Shown piece by piece: positions 18 to 29,103 of a DNA stretch of 35,256 nt. The notes below the pieces were generated by a model, which did not search any database, was not told where the DNA came from, and saw only the letters and a program-made list of their open reading frames with translations. Every line of letters begins with the position of its first letter. The stretch's first letter is position 1. Origin of the DNA: a virus; the UHGV virus genome UHGV-1783823; one strand, 5' to 3'. The position numbers were made by a program, and so were the translations under genes.

Positions 18-6616
<6,599 letters not shown>

Positions 6617-10921: not shown

Positions 10922-11821
10922 TTATTTACCTACTGACAAAGGTGCTTCAATCTTTCCTGCATGTTGGTAGTTGTTAATGCCACCAATAAAATCACTTGCA
11001 GTGAGATGTTTTAGGTCACTTAAAGTGTTAAGTGGGATACCAATCTCAAAAGTTGGTGCATGGAACTCTTCATTGTTCATCAGTTCATAAACCTGCTTCA
11101 TATGGTTCTGGTAAATCTGAGTATCCCCAAAGACACCTATCAAGTATCGTGGAGTGTATCCAGTCATCTTACAAAGAACTTCCAGAATAAAACCATAAGA
11201 CGCAATATTAAATGGAAGTCCTAAAAAGGTGTCTACAGAACGTTGATACCATTGTAAGTCAACTTCACCTTCGTTGGTGATATAAATCTGAAACAGAACA
11301 TGACAAGGTGCTAAAGCCATCGAGTTTGCTGCAATATCTGCTGCATTCCAAGCATTAACAAGCATGTAACGGTCTGTGATATCACCTTTCATCTTCGTTA
11401 CTAAGGTTTCTAACTGGTCTACAACACAACCATTATGACCTTCAAAGTTTCTCCACTGAACCCCGTAGATTCTCCCACCTGCATCTTCTAACCAGTCTTG
11501 CTCAGAAGAATAGTTAGAGCTTAACCAACGTTTAAAATCATCTGACCAGATAGTCCAACGTTCTCCATCATTTTCACCCCAAGTGCGATAACGAAGTTCA
11601 CCAAGTTTATTCTCACCGTTCAGAAACCATAAAGCTTCCCCGATAACTTGCCGTGTAAACACCTGTTTAGATGTTAAGAGCGGGAAACCAGTTCTCATAT
11701 CAAAGCGAAACTTGGGTGGAGCAAATGCAGAGATAACATCTCCAGTTCGTGTAGTACGCAGTTCACCAACGGATAAAACATGGTTCAGGATATTTTTGTA
11801 ACTCAAATCAGCTTGTGACAT
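10922..11821 (-). CDS. thyA: Thymidylate synthase
   Basis: Classic ThyA motifs: RTGDVIS, FPLLTSKQV, ALWFLNG, active-site LAPCH, DTFLGLPFNIASY (Asn retained, dUMP-specific); adjacent DHFR. Confidence 0.9.
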   Translation of the reverse strand: MSQADLSYKNILNHVLSVGELRTTRTGDVISAFAPPKFRFDMRTGFPLLTSKQVFTRQVIGEALWFLNGENKLGELRYRTWGENDGERWTIWSDDFKRWLSSNYSSEQDWLEDAGGRIYGVQWRNFEGHNGCVVDQLETLVTKMKGDITDRYMLVNAWNAADIAANSMALAPCHVLFQIYITNEGEVDLQWYQRSVDTFLGLPFNIASYGFILEVLCKMTGYTPRYLIGVFGDTQIYQNHMKQVYELMNNEEFHAPTFEIGIPLNTLSDLKHLTASDFIGGINNYQHAGKIEAPLSVGK

Positions 11822-11822
11822 A

Positions 11823-12368
11823 TCAAAAGTGTCCTTTTACTTGTGGAACATAGATTTCAAAGGTTGCTTTACCATCATCTGAGGGTCTTGACTGCACCTT
11901 TGCAAATACACGGTTATCATACAGTTTATCGAAGAAGTTTTCAAAAGGTAAATATACAGTGGCCTCTTCAGTAACCTTATGGAAAACTGTATGGAAAACT
12001 ACACCAGCATACGGCAAAGCATTGACAAGAACACCTGCACCACCAATTACAAAGATATCTTCATCAATAGAGCTATCAAGGTACTTCAAAAATGCTCCAA
12101 AGGACTCTTTGCTGGCCTTAGCATACATTACATCTTCTTTACCAAAGTCTATACCAAAATATGGCACAGAGTTTGTTAAGATAAGGTTTTCACGTTCTGG
12201 TAAAGGCTTACTACCCAGAGTCTTAAAAGTCTCATTACCCATCACTACTAAGTTATTTTTAGTGAGTCTCTTAAACTCTTGCATGTCCTGTTTATGTCGA
12301 GGCCACGGCATACCAGTTGGAGTACCAAACTCACCATTTTCACCACTTGCAAAGATTAATTTAATCAT
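11823..12368 (-). CDS. folA: Dihydrofolate reductase
   Basis: N-terminal IFASGENGEFG..MPW...D...F, VVMGNETFKTLG, PLPERENLILT, VIGGAGV; 1-nt gap to thyA. Confidence 0.85.
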   Translation of the reverse strand: MIKLIFASGENGEFGTPTGMPWPRHKQDMQEFKRLTKNNLVVMGNETFKTLGSKPLPERENLILTNSVPYFGIDFGKEDVMYAKASKESFGAFLKYLDSSIDEDIFVIGGAGVLVNALPYAGVVFHTVFHKVTEEATVYLPFENFFDKLYDNRVFAKVQSRPSDDGKATFEIYVPQVKGHF

Positions 12369-12625
12369 TTTGTAAATCCTTTCTTAATGAACCAGTTGAT
12401 AACACTCTTCACAACTTTACTACGATGGTAGATAAAATGTGGAGAGGGTTGGTATGAACCATAAGCCCAGAAAGCGATAATTTCATTACACCCTGTGCAT
12501 CGGGTACTTTCTTCAGCAATATGACCGTTGACTATTTCACTTACCTCACCTTGTAAGTCTGTACACCCGCAATGTGGACAACGGATAGGTGTTCCATCAG
12601 ACTCATAGCAGTGTTCAATTTTCAT
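12365..12625 (-). CDS. Zinc-ribbon protein (CxxC...CxxC)
   Basis: CPHCGC...CTGCNE cysteine pairs; ATGA overlap with DHFR start. Confidence 0.55.
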   Translation of the reverse strand: MKIEHCYESDGTPIRCPHCGCTDLQGEVSEIVNGHIAEESTRCTGCNEIIAFWAYGSYQPSPHFIYHRSKVVKSVINWFIKKGFTK

Positions 12626-13141
12626 CTATTTAACCTCAAAAACTGGTTCAAGAACCAATATAAAGTCCACACAGTCATCTTCTTCATCCAGAATACCATC
12701 AAAGTTCTTAGGTACAAAGTCGAAGAGGCTCATAGAATATCGGTCAGAAGTAACCCTGATAGTGTTCCCTATATTCTCTACAGTTAATATTGTACGGCTT
12801 TCTGTTACCTCACTTAGAAGATTACTCACAAAGTCATCTAAGAAGTGTTTCATCAGTGACTTGAAGCCTTTAGGGTAATCTGTACCAGAGTATGTTTCAA
12901 TCTGAGGAACAAGCTTAACATTTATACTAGTCTTTGTTAAGAACGTTTTAGAGAACATGCTATCAGGTAGCTTACAAACAGTCTTTCCAGTACCTTCATG
13001 TTCAATCTCAACAAAACCAGCTTCGTCGCCACATGTAACTATTTTAAAAGATGCTTCATTCTCATACTGTGAAGCCATAAACTTTTTAAGCATTTCTTTA
13101 AGGAAATCTGCATGAGCATCTTGTAAGTAGATATCAATCAT
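12626..13141 (-). CDS. Hypothetical protein
   Basis: 171 aa ORF co-oriented in the early operon; no motif recognised. Confidence 0.55.
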   Translation of the reverse strand: MIDIYLQDAHADFLKEMLKKFMASQYENEASFKIVTCGDEAGFVEIEHEGTGKTVCKLPDSMFSKTFLTKTSINVKLVPQIETYSGTDYPKGFKSLMKHFLDDFVSNLLSEVTESRTILTVENIGNTIRVTSDRYSMSLFDFVPKNFDGILDEEDDCVDFILVLEPVFEVK

Positions 13142-13154
13142 AGTTAATCACCTA

Positions 13155-13514
13155 TTATGGGAACAAGCACTTAATGTCATCGTTTTTGAAAACAAAACTT
13201 GTGTAGTTGTGACCATCAACATCTAGCCAAACAGCCTGAACATCTACACCATCAAGATTCTGGTAAAGCTCTTTGATGAAGTGGTCTTTCACAATCTGGC
13301 TGCTAGTTGTTTCCAGCTTAATGTTCGAGATTGCTGAACCTACAGCCATATAACCCATGACACGTTTCTTCTCAGTATGCTTAATCTTACCATCTTTGTA
13401 AGCCATAATGAGATTGGAGAGAATCTTCACACCATAATACTTTTCAAGGTGAGTAGGTACGCCATAAAAGCCTAATGCGAAGTTTTCAGAGTGGATAATG
13501 TTTTCACGTTTCAT
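13155..13514 (-). CDS. Hypothetical protein
   Basis: 119 aa ORF co-oriented in the early operon; no motif recognised. Confidence 0.55.
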   Translation of the reverse strand: MKRENIIHSENFALGFYGVPTHLEKYYGVKILSNLIMAYKDGKIKHTEKKRVMGYMAVGSAISNIKLETTSSQIVKDHFIKELYQNLDGVDVQAVWLDVDGHNYTSFVFKNDDIKCLFP

Positions 13515-13515
13515 A

Positions 13516-13845
13516 TTAATCTGCCAACCTTAAATTGAAATTAACACCAAATTTTTCACATACTTCCAACATATACTCAAGGGAGACGTTACCAGTGAGA
13601 TGGATTATGTTGGATACACGAGCCTGAGAGATACCACAAATTTTAGCAACTTGCTCTTGAGAAAGACCTCTGGATTTAATCTCTCTCTTAAAACGATGTG
13701 CAACGAAATCCCTCATCTCGTCTACATCCATTGGACAAATATAACTCTCCATTTCAGCCTCTCTATCAGCCTCCCAATCATCTTGTGGAGCATAAGGGTC
13801 AAAAACCTCATTCATCTTTCTTCTTCCGTTTACGTGAAGTATCAA
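13516..13845 (-). CDS. Helix-turn-helix DNA-binding protein (XRE-like HTH at C-terminus)
   Basis: LSQEQVAKICGISQARVSNIIHL matches HTH_3-type helix-turn-helix pattern; true start may be the internal Met (MNEVFDPY). Confidence 0.6.
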   Translation of the reverse strand: MILHVNGRRKMNEVFDPYAPQDDWEADREAEMESYICPMDVDEMRDFVAHRFKREIKSRGLSQEQVAKICGISQARVSNIIHLTGNVSLEYMLEVCEKFGVNFNLRLAD

Positions 13846-14020
13846 TTAATGAGTCTATGTTTGTAGCTCTGACCTTTTCACGTTCATCATTAAGATAATC
13901 GTCAAGAGCCTTTTCAATCTGTGAATCATCCTGACAGATGACTGTAAAGACTGTAAAGCCGTCTGTATCGTCAATTATCTTACCATAACCGCTTCTGGGA
14001 TGTAACTTTTTAAGAGCCAT
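13808..14020 (-). CDS. Hypothetical small protein with basic C-terminus
   Basis: 70 aa ORF; overlaps upstream gene by ~38 nt; C-terminal RKRKKKDE. Confidence 0.4.
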   Translation of the reverse strand: MALKKLHPRSGYGKIIDDTDGFTVFTVICQDDSQIEKALDDYLNDEREKVRATNIDSLIDTSRKRKKKDE

Positions 14021-14021
14021 A

Positions 14022-14405
14022 TCAAATACCTGTGCAGCTTCTGTTTTCTAAGAAATACTCAACACCATACATAGCTTTTTGCATCAAATCTTCTTTAAAC
14101 TGGATACGATGATTGAGCATAGCCTGTACATCAATATCATCAGGGTGCTTCTCTTTAATATTTGCAGATTGCAGGAAATACTCTGCAAGAACACGATACT
14201 GATAGTCAGTTACCTTATCAGTCATCTCTGTTAAAGACTCTTCAGAGATTGGTTTAAGTAGTTCACCTTTAGATAGGGCAACACCTTTAACAATCTGGCA
14301 AGTGTCTTCTGGAACACCTGATAAGTCCACATTTGGAAGTTCTGTTGCATTGACTGGTAAATTCATTGCCATAACCATTGCAGCAGCTAATAAAATCTTT
14401 TTCAT
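14022..14405 (-). CDS. Secreted/periplasmic protein with N-terminal signal peptide
   Basis: MKKILLAAAMVMAMNLPVNATE has the n-h-c architecture of a Sec signal peptide with an AxA-like cleavage region. Confidence 0.6.
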   Translation of the reverse strand: MKKILLAAAMVMAMNLPVNATELPNVDLSGVPEDTCQIVKGVALSKGELLKPISEESLTEMTDKVTDYQYRVLAEYFLQSANIKEKHPDDIDVQAMLNHRIQFKEDLMQKAMYGVEYFLENRSCTGI

Positions 14406-14450
14406 AATGACCTCAAAGTTATATTAAATTTTGTATTACATTGAGTATAA

Positions 14451-14497
14451 AAATAAGCTATAACACCTGACTTGTCAACAGATTTTATAGCTTATTT
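14451..14497. promoter_or_regulatory. 13-bp perfect inverted repeat with 21-bp spacer containing a TTGACA hexamer (- strand)
   Basis: AAATAAGCTATAA (14451-14463) and its reverse complement TTATAGCTTATTT (14485-14497); spacer includes TGTCAA at 14473-14478. Confidence 0.5.
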
Positions 14498-14532
14498 GGC
14501 AGATTTTTTATAAGGCTACTGCCATCCTTCCA

Positions 14533-14582
14533 TACCTTACCTAACCAAACCGAACCTCACACAACCAGACCGAGCCGCACCC
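14533..14582. repeat. Pentanucleotide tandem array A, ~10 units, consensus NACCN; G-poor on + strand
   Basis: tacct tacct aacca aaccg aacct cacac aacca gaccg agccg caccc; ACC recurs with exact 5-bp period. Confidence 0.7.
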
Positions 14583-14588
14583 CGCCTT

Positions 14589-14612
14589 ATTAAAAGACCC
14601 TCTTCAAAGACC
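14589..14612. promoter_or_regulatory. Conserved box copy 1 (TTAAAAGACCCTCTTCAAAGACC) following array A
   Basis: ~20 of 24 positions identical to the box at 14749-14771; followed by a 7-bp stem hairpin (AGTCTCA 14626-14632 / TGAGACT 14645-14651). Confidence 0.5.
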
Positions 14613-14664
14613 TTTTAAAAAGGTAAGTCTCATTTTAATGTAGCTGAGACTAACTACCCATACT

Positions 14665-14748
14665 GTACCGCACCTGACCCGACCTGACCAGACCTAACAT
14701 TACCGTGCCACACCGTACCGAACAGAACACTGCCATACCTCACATCAC
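14665..14748. repeat. Pentanucleotide tandem array B, ~16 units, consensus NNACC; - strand reads GGTCT GGTCA GGTCG GGTCA GGTGC GGTAC
   Basis: gtacc gcacc tgacc cgacc tgacc agacc taaca ttacc gtgcc acacc gtacc gaaca gaaca ctgcc atacc tcaca; strict 5-bp register over ~80 bp. Confidence 0.7.
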
Positions 14749-14781
14749 TTAAAAACCCTCTTAGAAGACTCTTAAGTGATG
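14743..14781. promoter_or_regulatory. Conserved box copy 2 (TTAAAAACCCTCTTAGAAGACTC, 14749-14771) embedded in a 10-bp perfect inverted repeat
   Basis: CATCACTTAA (14743-14752) and TTAAGTGATG (14772-14781) are exact reverse complements; the 19-nt loop carries the box core. Confidence 0.5.
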
Positions 14782-14996
14782 CTGGTGAGTACCCGTTGGT
14801 TTATGCTGCTCAGTATACTCACCAAATTTTCTATGTCAACAACTTTTTATATAAAAGTCCTGATAGCTATATGTGTTACAAAACAGAAGATTGTGAACAA
14901 AACACCCATTGCAAAAGATGTGTCCAAAAGCTTACTTGCAATGTATGACAATACAAAGACAACCAGTATAAACAGAATGACTGTACTGAACATAGT

Positions 14997-16100
14997 TTAC
15001 TCATAATCCCTAATAACTAGCCCTACAGGAAACTGTAAAGAACCCTTACGAGTCATCTTCTGGAACTGAACAGTTAAAGGTTTCCCGATAAACTCTTCAG
15101 GATGTTCAGCAAGATACTGTTTCTTCTCATGTGTAGTTTTCCATGAAACATCTACAAAGACGTTAGGAAGAGTCTCTACAACGAACTTACCATGACCACG
15201 CTTATCGGTCTTTACACCAGTCACTTTAAACTCTTCAGTGTGCATCTTCTTGTGCTTAATCAAGAAGTATGAACGGTGACAACACTCATAGAAGGAGTCT
15301 TCAGAGATTGAACGGTACATTGCACCTTCAAACTTAGCTTCAACCCACTTATCATGAGCTTCATCGAACTCTTCCCAAGAGTTAACACGACGAGACTTAA
15401 CAGGAACAACTTTACAGCCATCTCTAAAGTCATTCAATGGTGAAGTCTCAATAATATCTCTACGCTCAGGCCACGTCTTAGTACTATCACAGATATCATA
15501 CCAGTAGAACTTAAGTAAGTGTCTGTCAGGATTGTCTTCATTTTTAATCATGGAGACAATATCTTCTAAGTCCCACCCATGAGCATAAATCTCTCCATCA
15601 AATTCATCAACATCTTTGTGGAGCCTTAACATTGCCATAATGTCGGGTATTAGTTCAGTAGGGATTTTATAAACAGTATTCTCACGAGAGTATGCTGTGA
15701 ATACACTACCAATGCTTAAGTGTCTTGAAATTCTACAACGGACACCATCAAGTTTTGGTTGAGCATCAGCAGGGAACTTCAAATACTTTGCATGGCTAAC
15801 CTTTGCAGCATCATGAGCAAGCTGTACACCCACCTTCTCAGTATTCTGTGCAGACTCTTTTGTGTAAGCATAACCTTTACGGTCAACTTGCTTTTTATAC
15901 TTAGCAGCAACTTCAAAGAGAGCTTGCTGTTCAGCGTCACGCTCATTCTTTTTACCGATGTTTTTAGGTTCTGCTGTATACTCTTCAAACATCATCTTGC
16001 CATTTTCTTTACCATAGGTTGTAATAACTTTGTCACCTACAGCAACACATGACCAGACGTTGAAGGAACCGTCTTTATTTTGTTTGTACAGAATTGTCAT
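14997..16100 (-). CDS. ATP-dependent DNA ligase
   Basis: Nucleotidyltransferase motif I KLDGVRC (KxDGxR, Arg favours ATP-dependent type), DEFDGEIYAHG (motif III-like), EGAMYRS and FLIKHKK (motifs IV/V-like); start set at internal ATG 16100 preceded by RBS AGAGG rather than ORF-track start 16136. Confidence 0.8.
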   Translation of the reverse strand: MTILYKQNKDGSFNVWSCVAVGDKVITTYGKENGKMMFEEYTAEPKNIGKKNERDAEQQALFEVAAKYKKQVDRKGYAYTKESAQNTEKVGVQLAHDAAKVSHAKYLKFPADAQPKLDGVRCRISRHLSIGSVFTAYSRENTVYKIPTELIPDIMAMLRLHKDVDEFDGEIYAHGWDLEDIVSMIKNEDNPDRHLLKFYWYDICDSTKTWPERRDIIETSPLNDFRDGCKVVPVKSRRVNSWEEFDEAHDKWVEAKFEGAMYRSISEDSFYECCHRSYFLIKHKKMHTEEFKVTGVKTDKRGHGKFVVETLPNVFVDVSWKTTHEKKQYLAEHPEEFIGKPLTVQFQKMTRKGSLQFPVGLVIRDYE

Positions 16101-16293
16101 TTTTAACCTCTGAGTGATACCAAGTATTGCAAGCATTACATGCGTAAAGCTCTAAGTCATTTTTATCTGGTTTATGGAAACAGTTTGACCCACAACGACA
16201 CCGGAATAGCTTACCATCAACACGAAGAATGAACGTTTCAAGCTTACCATCTTCTGTAAGAACTGCGTTCTTAAATTTATCTTCTACAGTCAT
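16075..16293 (-). CDS. Zinc-ribbon protein
   Basis: CRCGSNC ... CNACN cysteine clusters; 72 aa. Confidence 0.5.
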   Translation of the reverse strand: MTVEDKFKNAVLTEDGKLETFILRVDGKLFRCRCGSNCFHKPDKNDLELYACNACNTWYHSEVKNDNSVQTK

Positions 16294-16595
16294 TTTCTCT
16301 TACCACCAATTTCTACGTCGATAACTTGAACATCGCCAGCAACATCAAACTTATGAATGATGCTTTCCACAGTGTAAGTCCAACCCTCAATGCGAACCAA
16401 TTCACCTTCTCGTGGTACGATTGGGTTACGTTGAGCTACCGTTGTAGTGGAGTGAACAACGTCATAACGATAGATATAGTTTACTAGGACTTCCATCGTG
16501 AAAACCTCACTCAATAACCGTAGTATGTGATTGACCATTTTTGCCGTAGCTATAAGATGTTGTTGTTTGAGAGTTTGGACATCTGACAACAACAA
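16290..16595 (-). CDS. Hypothetical protein (start uncertain; possibly internal Met at 16496)
   Basis: ORF overlaps the upstream lipoprotein gene by ~89 nt unless an internal start is used. Confidence 0.4.
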   Translation of the reverse strand: MLLSDVQTLKQQHLIATAKMVNHILRLLSEVFTMEVLVNYIYRYDVVHSTTTVAQRNPIVPREGELVRIEGWTYTVESIIHKFDVAGDVQVIDVEIGGKRK

Positions 16596-16767
16596 TATCC
16601 CTACTTATAGCATCACCATGTAACTTGTATACTCTGCAATCTTGCATCTCTGGTGGGAGACTGTAAGAAGCATTTTTATCTTCATAAGAAGGGTTGCAGC
16701 CAGATAGAAAAATAACACCAAGTGCAATTACTGCTTTCCACATAATACTCACCCTATTACTGTTCAC
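16507..16767 (-). CDS. Putative lipoprotein (signal peptide with lipobox LSGC)
   Basis: MWKAVIALGVIFLSGCNPSY: hydrophobic h-region followed by L-S-G-C lipobox; three further Cys in the mature part. Confidence 0.55.
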   Translation of the reverse strand: MNSNRVSIMWKAVIALGVIFLSGCNPSYEDKNASYSLPPEMQDCRVYKLHGDAISRDIVVVRCPNSQTTTSYSYGKNGQSHTTVIE

Positions 16768-16912
16768 GATGTTCTACTTCTCTGTATGTGCGTCGGTAGT
16801 TTATGATAAGAGGTGCTAATTCATTGCTTTTAACATTTGAACGTAACAGTTGCCAGTCAAAACCTTTAGCGACTCTTCCATATAAATTAAATAACTTTAC
16901 TTTGCGTTTCAT
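16757..16912 (-). CDS. Small basic protein (51 aa), not in supplied ORF track (below length cutoff)
   Basis: ATG at 16912 preceded by GGAGA RBS; translation MKRKVKLFNLYGRVAKGFDWQLLRSNVKSNELAPLIINYRRTYREVEHREQ; fills the gap between flanking - strand genes. Confidence 0.4.
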   Translation of the reverse strand: MKRKVKLFNLYGRVAKGFDWQLLRSNVKSNELAPLIINYRRTYREVEHREQ

Positions 16913-16930
16913 TTTTGGTATCTCCAATAC

Positions 16931-17143
16931 TCAGATGTCAATATTAATACGCTCACCCTTAAGGACTCCTGTACGGTCTCTTGCAATCTTACCGTCAACA
17001 ATAAGAATGTGTGCAGACCTTAAAGAATCATGATTAAAACCTTTTACGAACTTACTAGGCATCACTACAATAAGCATCTCCTGAATTAACTCTGGAGTGT
17101 AGCAATTGTCATGAAGTTGCTGAATAACGTCTGCAAGTGTCAT
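16931..17143 (-). CDS. Hypothetical protein
   Basis: 70 aa ORF co-oriented downstream of DNA polymerase. Confidence 0.45.
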   Translation of the reverse strand: MTLADVIQQLHDNCYTPELIQEMLIVVMPSKFVKGFNHDSLRSAHILIVDGKIARDRTGVLKGERINIDI

Positions 17144-17204
17144 ATAACCTCCTATACAAGATACAGTATAAGGTACTCTTCCATGAGCACCTTGTCAACA
17201 CTAA

Positions 17205-19904
17205 TTAGTGAACCTCAAGCCAGCTTTTACCAACCTTACCAGTACCTGTAACAAGCGTTTCTTTCTTAAGACCTAAGTTCTTAGAAGCTTGTCCATAATA
17301 CCAGTCAGTAACTGCTTTCACTTCTGCCGTCATACTTTCTGGACATTCCCAACTTGTTTCATCGTGATATGCACAGAGTAAACGAGCACCAATAGCTGGT
17401 TGACGACCATTTAACTTCATTAAGCCTTCGTCAATCATACGACGGCAAGCAAGGTTAATTGCCTCATTTTGAATCTGAGCCTCTGAACCCATGAGCAAAT
17501 AATTCAACAGCTTATGCGGAGATTTACACCACAACCAAGCTCCAGCAACCTTTACAAAACCCCCTTTAGAGATTGCAGCAGTCTTACCAAACACCTCTTC
17601 AAGTGCCTTTTTAGTTGCTTTGTAGTCAGCTTCCAAGTCATCTAACAGCTTCTTAATTTTAGGCAAACGTATAAAGTAAGTCTGTTTAGTCAGCGCACCT
17701 TCCTGAGTAGTCGCAGCTTTAATCGTCTTAGCAAACTTCTCATCACCTGCACCGAACAGCAGTGCATAGATACCATTCTTAGCTTTCTTACGACCTTTGC
17801 TAATCTCATGAAGAAGATTCTCATCCTGAGTAGCTCGACAAGTCAAGATGTCCTGCTCATCATTCAAGCTAAAGTAAATACTGTTCAGTGTATGTGCATC
17901 AGTCCCTGAATAGACAACGTACAGGTCATTCTCAGAGTCATAGCGAAGGTACTTATCAATCTCTGGGTTGAGGTACTCATCAAAATGTTTGCAGTAATAG
18001 CGTCCATCTTCTTGACGAATGAACTCAATTTCTTCTTTACCTTGCGTTACCGCTTTGGTGAAGTCTTTATCACCCATAAAGTTACAAAGTAGAACTAGCT
18101 GGGCTGAGTTCATATCTACAGAGACAACGTTAGTACCTTCCTCACAAATCCACACTGCCCTCATTGGTTCCCCATAGACAGCAGCACCAGACGGTACGTT
18201 TACAATACCATATTGTGTCATACGTCCAGTTGAAGTACCAAACACCATTGCACCAGCACTAAGGCGACCATCAGGACGAATCTGGTTCAACCAACCTTTT
18301 TCATCATCCTTTGAGTTCTCAATAGTTCTGCGTCGGTGCATCAAAGTATAGTACTTAGCAATCTTCTGTCCAAGCTCACCTTCAATCGTATCATAAGATG
18401 ATTCAGTAAGTTTTGGTGAAGTACGGATTAAGCAAGGCTCAAGCAAATCTGTGTACTTCTTCACAGACCAGTTATGCTCAATGTACTGTACACCTTCATG
18501 TTCAACATAGCTCAAACCACACCGCTCAACCATTTCCTGCCACTTAGGATGTTTTGTAATCATCTTTTTATTGTCTTTGAAACGACAAACTTTGACAGGG
18601 CGACCGTCTGAGTCTTTCTTGTAGTTCCAGTCATCTGGAATCCAACCAACTGATTTCAAGTAGTCTTTTACAACTGCTACCTGAGTCATACGAGAAACTT
18701 CAAACTCAATTGGTGTATATGGTGCATCAATCAATCCTGTGTAGCGACTTGACTCAAGTTCAAAGTGGTTAACAACGTGGCTGTTATAGTACTTCACAGT
18801 TTTGACTGTTTTTACTGGCTTCCAGTCTTTGCATTTCTTACCAATCTTTGCATTCAACTCATTGCAAATTGCACGAGCATCCTTCATTGCTACAAAGCCT
18901 TCCTTGTACTCTTCACCAGTTACAGAGTTGGTTGGTGTATAGCAATTTCTCTTTTCAATGTTAAAAATCTTTGTAGTTGGCTTACCAAATGGTTTGATTT
19001 CATAAGTCTGCATCTCACCATTACGCACCTGCTGACGATACTTCGTCTTAGGGTACTTGGTAATTCTTTTCAGTCCATCTGCATGACCAAATGCTTCAAC
19101 ATACTCATTCCAAGCTTTTGCAAACTCTTCTCCAGTGACTTTACCTTTGGTCTTAATAGTTGGAGGTAGATGTGGTTCAACCTCTGAAGCAAGCTCATTA
19201 GTCAACTTGTCAAGTTCCTTTACATGGAACTCCATAAGCTCTTTATCAGCTTTCCAACCATTGATAGCTTGTTGACTCATCCAGAAAGATGTTTCTTTAG
19301 CTCGCATATAGGTTTCATAAGTGTCTATACCACACTTCTTAAGCTTCAGGTATTCATTATCCAGTGCACGTTTAGTTTTGGCGTTAATACGGATATCTTC
19401 TACAACACGAGTGAAGATTTCTGCATTCCACACACCCCAATGTTCAATCTCTGGTTTACGGACACCAACACGAGCACCCCATGCAGCCAAGCCATGAGCA
19501 CCTTTATAGCCTTTTGGAGTTGGTCTATCCATCCACTGAACACGAGACTGGATAAGAGAATCCTGAAAGAAATTACTCCACGGTTTACACTTTGGATTAT
19601 CAAAGTTCCACAAATCAGGTGCAATGTGATTGAAAACCCACCAGTCATATCCTAGACCATTGTGGATGCAAAGTCGTTTTGCCTTTAACGCAAACTCAAT
19701 ACCTTCACGTAAGCCGCCCTTAATGTACTTGGTATACTTGTGACCGAGGATAGGCTCATCTGTAAAGACCCATACAGGTGGCTCTTCATCGTCAGATTTA
19801 TAGTCTGCGAAAGCCATTACGTGCACTTTAGTGAACTCAAGGAGTAAACCATCAGTTTCTGTATCACCAACTAAATGTAAGTTTTTAAAATCTACGTTTT
19901 CCAT
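17205..19904 (-). CDS. DNA polymerase, family A (Pol I/T7-like) with 3-prime-5-prime exonuclease domain
   Basis: Exo I motif DTETDGL; motif A VDMNSAQL; motif B RKKAKNGIYALLFGAG; motif C AYHDE; start set at ATG 19904 preceded by RBS GAGGGAG (ORF-track start 19934 has no RBS). Confidence 0.9.
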   Translation of the reverse strand: MENVDFKNLHLVGDTETDGLLLEFTKVHVMAFADYKSDDEEPPVWVFTDEPILGHKYTKYIKGGLREGIEFALKAKRLCIHNGLGYDWWVFNHIAPDLWNFDNPKCKPWSNFFQDSLIQSRVQWMDRPTPKGYKGAHGLAAWGARVGVRKPEIEHWGVWNAEIFTRVVEDIRINAKTKRALDNEYLKLKKCGIDTYETYMRAKETSFWMSQQAINGWKADKELMEFHVKELDKLTNELASEVEPHLPPTIKTKGKVTGEEFAKAWNEYVEAFGHADGLKRITKYPKTKYRQQVRNGEMQTYEIKPFGKPTTKIFNIEKRNCYTPTNSVTGEEYKEGFVAMKDARAICNELNAKIGKKCKDWKPVKTVKTVKYYNSHVVNHFELESSRYTGLIDAPYTPIEFEVSRMTQVAVVKDYLKSVGWIPDDWNYKKDSDGRPVKVCRFKDNKKMITKHPKWQEMVERCGLSYVEHEGVQYIEHNWSVKKYTDLLEPCLIRTSPKLTESSYDTIEGELGQKIAKYYTLMHRRRTIENSKDDEKGWLNQIRPDGRLSAGAMVFGTSTGRMTQYGIVNVPSGAAVYGEPMRAVWICEEGTNVVSVDMNSAQLVLLCNFMGDKDFTKAVTQGKEEIEFIRQEDGRYYCKHFDEYLNPEIDKYLRYDSENDLYVVYSGTDAHTLNSIYFSLNDEQDILTCRATQDENLLHEISKGRKKAKNGIYALLFGAGDEKFAKTIKAATTQEGALTKQTYFIRLPKIKKLLDDLEADYKATKKALEEVFGKTAAISKGGFVKVAGAWLWCKSPHKLLNYLLMGSEAQIQNEAINLACRRMIDEGLMKLNGRQPAIGARLLCAYHDETSWECPESMTAEVKAVTDWYYGQASKNLGLKKETLVTGTGKVGKSWLEVH

Positions 19905-19934
19905 TTTTACTCCCTCTAAAATCATTAACCTCAT

Positions 19935-28799: not shown

Positions 28800-29103
28800 T
28801 AAAGAGGGTGTGGCTCAGAAGAGCCACTTCTCAAACTACAATATTTCTATGACGGTGTTTATGAATGACCCGTTACTTGAAAAGTATGGTGAGACTCCAG
28901 ATACACTTCTGGATAATGAACAAGTTTTAAAAGCAGTCCTGTACAAATACGGGATTGACATTGAGAAAGAGTATTCTTTTGAAATCTGCCAACACAGGAA
29001 TACTTTCGGTAAAGTTGTGATGGCTCCGCTCTTTATGGGTGTAGAAAGGACTGACTATGGTTGGCTGTATCTGAAAAGAAACTTGGAGAAATACCGTGTT
29101 TAA
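28771..29103 (+). CDS. Hypothetical protein
   Basis: 110 aa ORF, co-oriented and overlapping neighbours. Confidence 0.45.
   Translation: MVIMDSQNINKEGVAQKSHFSNYNISMTVFMNDPLLEKYGETPDTLLDNEQVLKAVLYKYGIDIEKEYSFEICQHRNTFGKVVMAPLFMGVERTDYGWLYLKRNLEKYRV

What the first reader, a model, noticed from the sequence alone, without database searches (positions are those of the whole stretch)
14589..14781. A ~24-bp box duplicated 160 bp apart, each copy immediately downstream of a pentamer array
TTAAAAGACCCTCTTCAAAGACC (14589-14612) and TTAAAAACCCTCTTAGAAGACTC (14749-14771) share ~20 of 24 positions. Each follows a pentamer array, so the island is a two-copy composite unit (array plus box). The second box sits in the loop of a perfect 10-bp inverted repeat (14743-14752 / 14772-14781); the first is followed by a 7-bp hairpin (14626-14651). 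The box is not self-complementary, which suggests a protein-binding site or phage-specific promoter element rather than a terminator.
Basis: seen in the sequence. Interest (0 to 1): 0.6.

Follow-up and report, generated by a model that had tools for sequence, protein, structure and literature searches.

The report
Spacer hairpins in a VIPR guide-RNA array
The two "boxes" are the tops of conserved RNA hairpins, one in front of each of two pentamer-repeat guide RNAs (vrRNAs) of the recently described phage VIPR RNA-guided silencing system; this phage has the guide array but no gene for the Vipr protein that uses it.

Summary
The window is a Felixounavirus, and all local genes are on the minus strand. 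On minus-strand RNA each box is the apex of an 18-pair hairpin (14743-14781 and 14585-14623) closed by invariant G·U wobbles. So the box is self-complementary as RNA.

The pentamer arrays are YNNGG/GGY-NN guide tracts of VIPR vrRNAs (bioRxiv 10.64898/2026.04.26.720920). Each unit on the minus strand is hairpin, then repeat tract, then tail.

- Relatives carry 1-5 such units around a vipr-vap gene pair. The relatives' Vipr family matches PDB 36pp, "SUSP1 Vipr protein".
- The window has two units and no vipr.
- A covariance model finds the hairpin only at vrRNA units. In SUSP1 there is one per vrRNA.
- Guide a matches a gene of an E. coli phage satellite at 29-30 of 34 NN positions. The skipped base falls on the codon wobble position.

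The hairpin is not discussed in the text of the VIPR preprints. I infer that it is an inter-guide punctuation or maturation element, because mature vrRNAs of about 100 nt exclude it. That role is untested.

The system is already known. The hairpin and the effector-less array are new details.

The parts
14812..14839 (-). Sigma-70-type promoter TTGACA-16-TATACT that should drive the vrRNA array. The inferred start is near 14805.
   Evidence: 11 of 12 matches. The same sequence sits upstream of the first hairpin in the related loci that show it and in SUSP1.
14743..14781 (-). Box-2 hairpin (type A), 18 pairs. It lies directly 5' of guide tract a.
   Evidence: -21.9 kcal/mol, z -5.6; 62.6 bits; covariation.
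14658..14742 (-). vrRNA-a guide tract of 17 YNNGG units, 13 of them with a perfect GG.
   Evidence: It is 97.6% identical to the first unit of the vipr+ locus L014. Its NN code matches a satellite gene at 29-30 of 34 positions.
14622..14657 (-). vrRNA-a 3' tail, GTAG-TT-AGTCTCA-G-CTAC-ATTAAAA-TGAGACT-TACC, with H-type pseudoknot topology.
   Evidence: The tail families covary in both stems. It is identical in sequence to the tail after SUSP1 vrRNA3. The preprints report a 3' pseudoknot for SUSP1 vrRNA, resolved by cryo-EM.
14585..14623 (-). Box-1 hairpin (type B). Its 3' arm ends in a YNNGG unit (TAAGG).
   Evidence: -14.6 kcal/mol; 63.8 bits.
14530..14584 (-). vrRNA-b guide tract of 11 YNNGG units, plus TAAGG in the hairpin arm.
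   Evidence: It is 94.5% identical to the last unit (5 of 5) of the vipr+ locus L004.
14497..14529 (-). vrRNA-b 3' tail of the terminal type: AAGG...CCTT and TGGCAG...CTGCCA, the same pseudoknot topology with different letters.
   Evidence: The same tail ends the last vrRNA of SUSP1.
14450..14497 (-). AU-rich hairpin followed by a U run, so terminator-like. It contains the next promoter, TTGACA-17-TATTTT, for the 127-aa ORF.
   Evidence: I1; -17.8 kcal/mol, z -4.4.

Best explanation
The 590-bp gap between the DNA ligase gene and the next ORF is an effector-less ('orphan') two-guide array of the SUSP1-clade (type II) VIPR system, read from the minus strand. A host-type promoter would transcribe a precursor made of leader, hairpin, 17 YNNGG units, pseudoknot tail, hairpin, 11-12 YNNGG units, pseudoknot tail. 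The two boxes are the apical halves of the two hairpins.

In VIPR, Vipr protomers bind one pentamer each, and the NN dinucleotides pair with DNA while skipping every third base. This is published work and was not tested here.

My inference is that the hairpin is a punctuation element. It marks the 5' edge of each guide and is removed or excluded when the roughly 100-nt vrRNA matures. Candidate routes are a double-strand-specific host nuclease such as RNase III, or trimming back to the edge of the Vipr filament.

- Shown here: the hairpin, its strand, its one-per-guide distribution, its phasing with the repeats, and the array's identity.
- Inferred: that the hairpin acts in maturation.
For: **The arrays are vrRNAs**
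- The tracts are YNNGG repeats ending in SUSP1-type tails.
- An approximately 200-aa protein (phrog_4652) flanks degenerate GGTNN arrays in 32 IMG/VR loci, two of them Felixounavirus. A profile of its homologues matches PDB 36pp, 'SUSP1 Vipr protein', at E = 9.6e-81. The SUSP1 copy is 97.4% identical to the Felixounavirus protein.
- The VIPR description comes from the preprints.

**The hairpin is RNA on the minus strand**
- Folding energies are strand-asymmetric.
- Both hairpins appear in the centroid fold of the whole gap.
- Among 39 distinct copies, 94% of cells pair and 6 pairs changed on both sides. G·U pairs are invariant at three positions, and no shuffle reaches the covariation score. 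RNAalifold agrees.

**Punctuation role**
- There is one hairpin per guide: 2 in the window, 2 in a whole relative genome, 4 in SUSP1 for 4 vrRNAs, and a partial fifth just before vipr.
- The distance from hairpin end to tail start is a multiple of 5 in all but 3 of about 100 units.
- The 12 units that follow the SUSP1 vrRNA1 hairpin equal the 12 protomers seen by cryo-EM. 60 nt plus a 33-nt tail fits the reported size of about 100 nt or less, whereas leader plus hairpin would add 63 nt.
- Other VIPR types put hammerhead ribozymes between guides. This is a precedent for a processing device in that position.

**The guide is meaningful**
- vrRNA-a matches the satellite CDS WP_074417346.1 at 29 of 34 NN positions, and at 30 and 29 of 34 in two further satellites.
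- The ten units just 5' of the last unit match perfectly, and the skipped base is codon position 3.
- Shuffled guides reach at most 23.
Against: - No transcript ends are available to me, so removal of the hairpin is deduced only from reported sizes.
- The preprint texts do not mention the element, and their figures cannot be read.
- The satellite's own vrRNA has no such hairpin, and 47 non-Ounavirinae array loci have none. The hairpin is therefore not required for vrRNA function in general.
- The core letters GUCUU/AGGGU are conserved rather than covarying. This would also fit a sequence-specific binding partner.
- The window encodes no Vipr, and a collinear relative has none anywhere in its genome. 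The array may therefore do nothing in this phage.
- No target was found for vrRNA-b.
Confidence: 0.6

Rival explanations
1. The hairpin with its following U-tract (AGGGUUUUUAAG or AGGGUCUUUUAAU) is a leaky intrinsic terminator or attenuator. It would set how much transcription continues into each later guide.
For: A run of 4-5 U directly follows the inner stem in both types. Box B also sits right after the canonical vap terminator in vipr+ relatives.
Against: - The inner stem has only 1-2 G-C pairs, and the terminator scan reports nothing there.
- The U-tract is itself paired with an upstream A-tract in the extended stem.
- The first hairpin lies about 24 nt after the predicted start, where termination would abort the whole array.
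- The locus uses ordinary GC-rich UUCG-loop or long-stem terminators where ends are needed.
Confidence: 0.12
2. The box is a double-stranded DNA site for a phage protein, such as the HTH protein at 13516-13845 or Vap, or it is a phage-specific promoter for each guide.
For: - The core letters are highly conserved (15 invariant columns).
- Guides downstream of the vap terminator need some source of transcription.
- A box variant lies just before the vipr gene, next to a possible promoter (manual reading of the sequence).
Against: - The outer stem changes letters completely between types A and B yet keeps pairing.
- The wobble pairs work on one strand only.
- Relatives L010, L012, L018 and L028 tolerate a 26-nt insertion replacing the loop.
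- There is no sigma-70 match.
- There are no copies outside the guide units in an 87-kb genome.
Confidence: 0.08
3. The hairpin is kept in the mature vrRNA as a 5' cap or handle. It would protect the end or stop Vipr polymerisation.
For: - It is exactly phased with the repeats.
- Its 3' arm ends in a YNNGG-like unit.
- The 3' end has a structured cap, so a 5' counterpart would be symmetrical.
Against: - The reported vrRNA size is about 100 nt or less, and the complex shows 12 protomers plus only a 3' pseudoknot. With the hairpin, SUSP1 vrRNA1 would be at least 132 nt.
- The hairpin is absent from the satellite vrRNA and from other clades.
Confidence: 0.12
4. The box has no RNA function of its own. 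Together with the tail it is conserved flanking homology that lets guide units be shuffled, gained and lost by recombination.
For: - Unit number varies from 1 to 5.
- The window's two units match the first unit of one vipr+ array and the last unit of another. This fits a deletion between repeated tail+box modules that removed vipr and vap.
Against: Homology alone does not explain the strand-specific wobble pairs, the compensatory changes, or the strict 5-nt phasing. Recombination is more likely a consequence than the selected function.
Confidence: 0.08

Closest known systems
VIPR type II system of Escherichia phage SUSP1 (vrRNA arrays; bioRxiv 10.64898/2026.04.26.720920 and 10.64898/2026.04.26.720927)
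   Same: - Same genomic position, downstream of the DNA ligase gene.
- Same promoter, same box hairpins, same YNNGG tracts and same pseudoknot tails.
- The guide targets the same kind of E. coli satellite with the 1-nt skip rule.
   Different: - The window has no vipr or vap genes and only 2 guides, against 4 in SUSP1.
- The 5' hairpin studied here is not described in the preprint texts.
Hammerhead-ribozyme-interspersed vrRNA arrays of other VIPR types (same preprint, fig. S19)
   Same: A structured RNA element sits between successive guides of one precursor.
   Different: The box is a plain hairpin with no match to any Rfam ribozyme or other family. Any cleavage would need a protein nuclease.
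CRISPR repeat hairpins processed by Cas6, and RNase III sites that punctuate phage T7 early transcripts (from general knowledge)
   Same: - A conserved stem-loop recurs at each boundary of a multi-unit transcript.
- The hairpin base coincides with the start of the guide.
   Different: - No nuclease is known or tested here.
- The stem is 18 pairs, rich in A-U and G·U.
- Vipr is a RAMP, but no cleavage activity is reported in the preprint text I searched.
TRAP-binding sites (11 GAG/UAG triplets with 2-3-nt spacers; from general knowledge)
   Same: Both are a fixed triplet plus a variable spacer, repeated about 10 times, with one protein subunit bound per repeat.
   Different: In VIPR the variable dinucleotides carry the targeting information and the protein forms a helical filament, not a ring. 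I considered TRAP as a lead before the VIPR link was found.

Membership tests
VIPR vrRNA (SUSP1 clade, type II) | Tract of 9-16 tandem YNNGG (GGY/NN) pentamers with hypervariable NN | tested here: met
   There are 17 units (13 with GG) and 11-12 units. NN varies between relatives while GGY is kept. Seventeen is one above the published range, and the 5' units are degenerate.
VIPR vrRNA (SUSP1 clade, type II) | Invariable 3' tail of about 40 nt with a hairpin and pseudoknot | tested here: met
   The tails at 14622-14657 and 14497-14529 are identical to tails in the SUSP1 locus. The tail families keep both stems through different letters. The fold itself was not determined here.
VIPR system | Adjacent vipr gene (minimal RAMP of about 20 kDa) | tested here: not met
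   There is no tblastn hit in the window (best E 0.05), and none in the whole genome of the collinear relative OZ035806. vipr is present in 20 of the 33 sequences compared (32 related loci plus the window) and in 118 Ounavirinae GenBank records. The window therefore holds an orphan array, not a complete system.
VIPR system | vap accessory gene next to vipr | tested here: not met
   The two-gene cassette seen in tootiki, Tribble and SUSP1 is absent between the window's units.
VIPR vrRNA | Natural target matching at least 80% of NN positions under the 1-nt skip rule, usually in a coding sequence with the skip at the wobble base | tested here: met
   vrRNA-a matches at 29/34, 30/34 and 29/34 in three E. 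coli satellites, in codon phase 0, and shuffled guides reach at most 23. vrRNA-b gives nothing above chance.
VIPR vrRNA | Expressed as an RNA of about 100 nt bound by Vipr | not testable with these tools
   Only a promoter prediction is available. Expression was shown for SUSP1 in the preprint.
Intrinsic terminator | G+C-rich stem followed by an unpaired U run | tested here: not met
   The scan finds none at the boxes. The stems have 1-2 G-C pairs in the inner part, and the U run is paired.
Rfam RNA families, including self-cleaving ribozymes | Covariance-model match | tested here: not met
   There are no matches at gathering scores. At E up to 10 there are only two chance-level hits to unrelated families.

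The most novel reading that the evidence does not exclude
The hairpin is the dedicated maturation signal of type II VIPR arrays, the functional counterpart of a CRISPR repeat, cut by a host double-strand RNase or by a phage factor. In addition, effector-less arrays like this one stay useful because their guides are loaded by Vipr supplied in trans from a co-infecting vipr+ relative. That would make them guide-only freeloaders in the phage-satellite conflict.
Probability: 0.25. Interest if true: 0.6.

Novelty: new member of a known kind. Interest (0 to 1): 0.4.

Why it matters
VIPR was reported only in 2026, and how its multi-guide type II arrays are cut into single guides is not explained in the preprint texts. 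A conserved, phased, one-per-guide hairpin gives a specific element to mutate.

The window also shows that about a third of array-bearing Felix-like loci keep intact, satellite-targeting guides without the effector gene. Searches seeded on the Vipr protein would miss these. Their GG content is as good as in vipr+ phages (77% against 80%). This raises two possibilities: the guides work in trans, or the loss is recent.

Tried and rejected
**Ideas considered before the VIPR link and dropped**
- rut site or Rho loading on the plus strand
- TRAP-like ring binding
- Arrays of primase recognition sites, or an R-loop origin
- Two-tetrad G-quadruplexes
- tRNA CCA-end or anti-Shine-Dalgarno sponges
- A boxA/nut-like element on the plus strand
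- A short ORF behind the Shine-Dalgarno-like AAGAGGG (reading frames are not conserved)

**Searches that gave nothing**
- Literature searches on Felix O1 repeats found nothing. The Felix O1 genome paper does not mention the element.
- Pfam finds nothing for Vipr.
- Exact 1-nt-skip pattern scans for both window guides, and for SUSP1 vrRNA1, found nothing in IMG/VR or in GTDB representative genomes. These collections lack the satellite, and only exact matches are found.
- A mismatch-tolerant scan of all sequence then held (window, phage and IMG/VR loci; the satellites were fetched later) gave only chance scores.

**How the target was found**
- The target appeared only after I fetched E. coli satellites through their Felix-like baseplate gene.

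**Not used**
- A structure model of the relatives' Vipr was made (pLDDT 95.7). No fold search was needed once PDB 36pp matched.

Full report
**1. What is in the sequence**

The window is a Felix O1-like phage (Felixounavirus), 94-96% identical to many GenBank records. The finding lies in the 590-bp gap 14406-14996. This gap separates the DNA ligase gene (14997-16136) from a 127-aa ORF (14022-14405). Both genes, and all genes from 10922 to 19934, are on the minus strand.

- The two boxes match at 19 of 24 aligned columns.
- The 10-bp inverted repeat around box 2 and the small hairpin after box 1 are real.
- Pentamer periodicity occurs nowhere else in the window.
- ACCCTCTT is over-represented, at 7 copies against 1.0 expected. 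The other five copies are inside genes and share no flanks.

**2. The boxes are RNA hairpins on the minus strand**

Read as minus-strand RNA, each box closes on itself through G·U wobble pairs and extends the flanking inverted repeat to an 18-pair stem.
- 14743-14781 folds at -21.9 kcal/mol (z -5.6), and 14585-14623 at -14.6 kcal/mol.
- The plus-strand versions reach only -10.9 and -8.8 kcal/mol, because the wobbles become A-C mismatches.
- Both hairpins survive in the centroid fold of the whole gap.

**3. Comparative anatomy**

I fetched 29 related loci through the ligase protein and three annotated GenBank relatives. On the coding strand the region is built of 1-5 modules. Each module consists of:
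- a box hairpin;
- a tract of degenerate pentamers;
- a conserved tail of about 35 nt.

The hairpin comes in two types.
- Type A, CATCACTTAAGAGTCTT...AGGGTTTTTAAGTGATG, follows the promoter or one tail variant.
- Type B, CCTTTTTAAAAGGTCTT...AGGGTCTTTTAATRAGG, follows the common tail or a gene terminator.

Thirty-nine distinct copies align cleanly.
- On the 18-pair structure, 94% of cells pair.
- Six pairs changed on both sides while keeping the pair.
- Three wobble pairs are invariant.
- None of 500 shuffles reaches the observed covariation score, and slid controls fall to 50-76% pairing.
- RNAalifold predicts the same helix without being told it.
- In four relatives a 26-nt insertion replaces the loop without disturbing the stem.

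Many relatives also carry a two-gene cassette between modules. The window lacks it.

**4. What the arrays are**

Besides plain microsatellites, about 50 mostly unrelated viral contigs carry the same kind of degenerate array: GGT fixed, NN variable, 8-20 units. There are often many arrays in a row.

I clustered all ORFs near these arrays. One family of about 200 aa lies beside the arrays, on the same strand, in 32 loci. The first gene of the Felixounavirus cassette belongs to this family.
- The family is phrog_4652, of unknown function, with no Pfam domain.
- It has hundreds of homologues, all labelled hypothetical.
- A profile of it matches PDB 36pp, 'SUSP1 Vipr protein', at E = 9.6e-81.

That name led to two 2026 preprints describing VIPR systems, for Viral Interference Programmable Repeat. 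According to them:
- A minimal RAMP protein, Vipr, polymerises on a vrRNA of 9-16 YNNGG repeats, one protomer per repeat.
- The vrRNA is capped by a 3' tail of about 40 nt with a pseudoknot.
- The NN dinucleotides pair with double-stranded DNA, skipping one base per repeat.
- This silences transcription of competing phages and satellites.

SUSP1 is an Ounavirinae phage, and its locus sits at the same place as the window's gap. Its promoter, hairpins, tracts and tails are the same sequences as in the window. The tail variants keep both pseudoknot stems with different letters:
- stem 1: GTAG/CTAC, GTGG/CCAC, AAGG/CCTT;
- stem 2: AGTCTCA/TGAGACT, AATCGGA/TYCGATT, TGGTAG/CTACCA, TGGCAG/CTGCCA.

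**5. The window's array is effector-less but not decayed**

No Vipr homologue is encoded in the window. None is found anywhere in the complete 87-kb genome of OZ035806, which is collinear with the window at 90-97% identity.

Among the 33 sequences compared (32 related loci plus the window):
- 20 have vipr and 3-5 guides;
- 10 have 1-2 guides and no vipr;
- 3 have neither.

In GenBank, 118 Ounavirinae records carry vipr, while 297 records match the region.

The window's first guide is 97.6% identical to the first guide of a vipr+ array. Its second guide is 94.5% identical to the last guide of another vipr+ array. This fits a deletion between repeated tail+hairpin modules that removed the interior guides together with vipr and vap. 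The fraction of units with an intact GG is similar in vipr- arrays (77%) and vipr+ arrays (80%).

**6. A predicted target**

Exact skip-rule patterns found nothing in IMG/VR or in GTDB representative genomes. A tolerant scan of all sequence held at that point gave only chance scores.

The preprint says that SUSP1-clade guides mostly hit a satellite sharing baseplate genes with the phage. I therefore searched E. coli genomes with the window's homologue of that gene, 822-1625. It found 474 genomes with a copy, most of them at least 80% identical.

The element is an island of about 11.7 kb between yciI and tonB. It carries a tape measure gene, a baseplate gene and a serine recombinase.

Guide a matches this satellite as follows.
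- It matches L157 8654-8703 at 29 of 34 NN positions, and two other satellites at 30 and 29 of 34.
- The ten units just 5' of the last unit (units 7-16 of 17) match perfectly. The last unit mismatches at one position.
- Two hundred shuffled guides reach at most 23.
- The site lies in CDS WP_074417346.1, starting at codon position 1. Every skipped base is therefore a wobble position, as the preprint reports for natural targets.
- Most mismatches (4 of 5) fall in four 5' units, two of which have also lost their GG.

Guide b has no match above chance. The satellites encode no Vipr. One of them carries its own vrRNA, with a pseudoknot tail and an ordinary terminator.

**7. What the box hairpin does**

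This part is inference. A covariance model built from the 39 copies gives these results.

| Sequence searched | Hits |
|---|---|
| Window | 2, and nothing else with E below 1 |
| OZ035806, whole genome | 2 strong; four others at 17.3 bits or less |
| SUSP1 locus | 4 for 4 vrRNAs, plus a partial copy just before vipr |
| 47 array loci outside Ounavirinae | 0 |
| Satellite, at its own vrRNA | 0 |

The hairpin is therefore specific to this clade. It marks every boundary in the multi-part transcript: leader to guide, guide to guide, guide to vipr mRNA, and vap terminator to guide.

The distance from its 3' end to the tail is a multiple of 5 in all but 3 of about 100 units. In SUSP1 vrRNA1, exactly 12 units follow the hairpin. 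The purified complex shows 12 protomers and only a 3' pseudoknot, and the RNA is reported as about 100 nt or less. With leader and hairpin it would be about 156 nt. Other VIPR types place hammerhead ribozymes between guides, so a processing device at this position has precedent.

I therefore propose that the hairpin is a punctuation or maturation signal that is removed. Candidate routes are RNase III-type cleavage, or trimming to the filament edge. Four rivals remain:
- a leaky terminator;
- a retained 5' cap;
- a DNA site or promoter;
- mere recombination homology.

Each is less consistent with the data, for the reasons listed under rival explanations. The preprint texts do not mention the element. 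I could not see their figures.

**8. Verdict**

It was misread for strand and for the order of parts. The promoter or DNA-site interpretation is not supported.

The island is an orphan two-guide array of a system that is now published, so it is not a new kind of thing. Three details add something:
- the conserved, phased, one-per-guide 5' hairpin, with covariation support;
- the existence of intact effector-less arrays in a sizeable share of Felix-like phages;
- a specific satellite target for one of this window's guides.

None of the functional steps was tested.

Noticed in passing
L130 3230-4390; L052 2200-3410; L042, L041, L049, L058, L084 (IMG/VR loci): Some unrelated viral contigs carry more than 1 kb of back-to-back degenerate GGTNN arrays. 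L130 has at least 15, each ending GGCAGTT. L052 has about 10, each ending GGAATGGTTTAATGAATTTAATTT. None has a box-type hairpin. They probably correspond to other VIPR array architectures, such as the 'staggered' arrays mentioned in the preprint.
   Followed up: partly
L157 5871-5920 (minus strand), E. coli RL465 satellite between yciI and tonB: The satellite targeted by guide a carries its own vrRNA: 10 YNNGG units, a GTGG/CCAC-type pseudoknot tail and a GC-rich terminator. It has no box hairpin and no vipr gene.
   Followed up: partly
L157 10513-10551 (+): A box-like hairpin (38.5 bits with model R1) lies in the satellite directly after a terminator hairpin, and no repeat tract follows it. 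It could be a remnant of an array unit or an independent use of the same element.
   Followed up: no
L010 7725, L012, L018 7870, L028 (type A hairpins): In these four loci a 26-nt insertion (AAATTATATTCGATAGAGTATCTCAT or a close variant) replaces the apical loop of a type A hairpin and forms its own small stem. The main stem stays intact.
   Followed up: no
window 14783-14790 and 14816-14823: The inverted repeat GGTGAGTA / TACTCACC brackets the -10 element and the predicted start of the array promoter. It could fold only in transcripts reading through from the ligase gene.
   Followed up: no
window 822-1625: This baseplate-protein gene has copies, mostly 80-99% identical, in the chromosomes of 474 of 5426 complete E. 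coli genomes. They lie on an integrated satellite of about 11.7 kb with a tape measure gene and a serine recombinase.
   Followed up: partly
window 4888, 26929, 27191, 28802, 35002: Five further copies of ACCCTCTT lie inside genes (7 copies in all against 1.0 expected) and share no flanks with the boxes. The copy at 28802-28809 abuts a perfect 7-bp hairpin, GTGGCTC-TTCT-GAGCCAC, on the minus strand. The enrichment is unexplained.
   Followed up: no
L019, L021, L022: Three loci with ligase homologues 85-89% identical to the window's have neither arrays, hairpins nor vipr downstream of the ligase. The VIPR locus is therefore an accessory insertion within the group.
   Followed up: no
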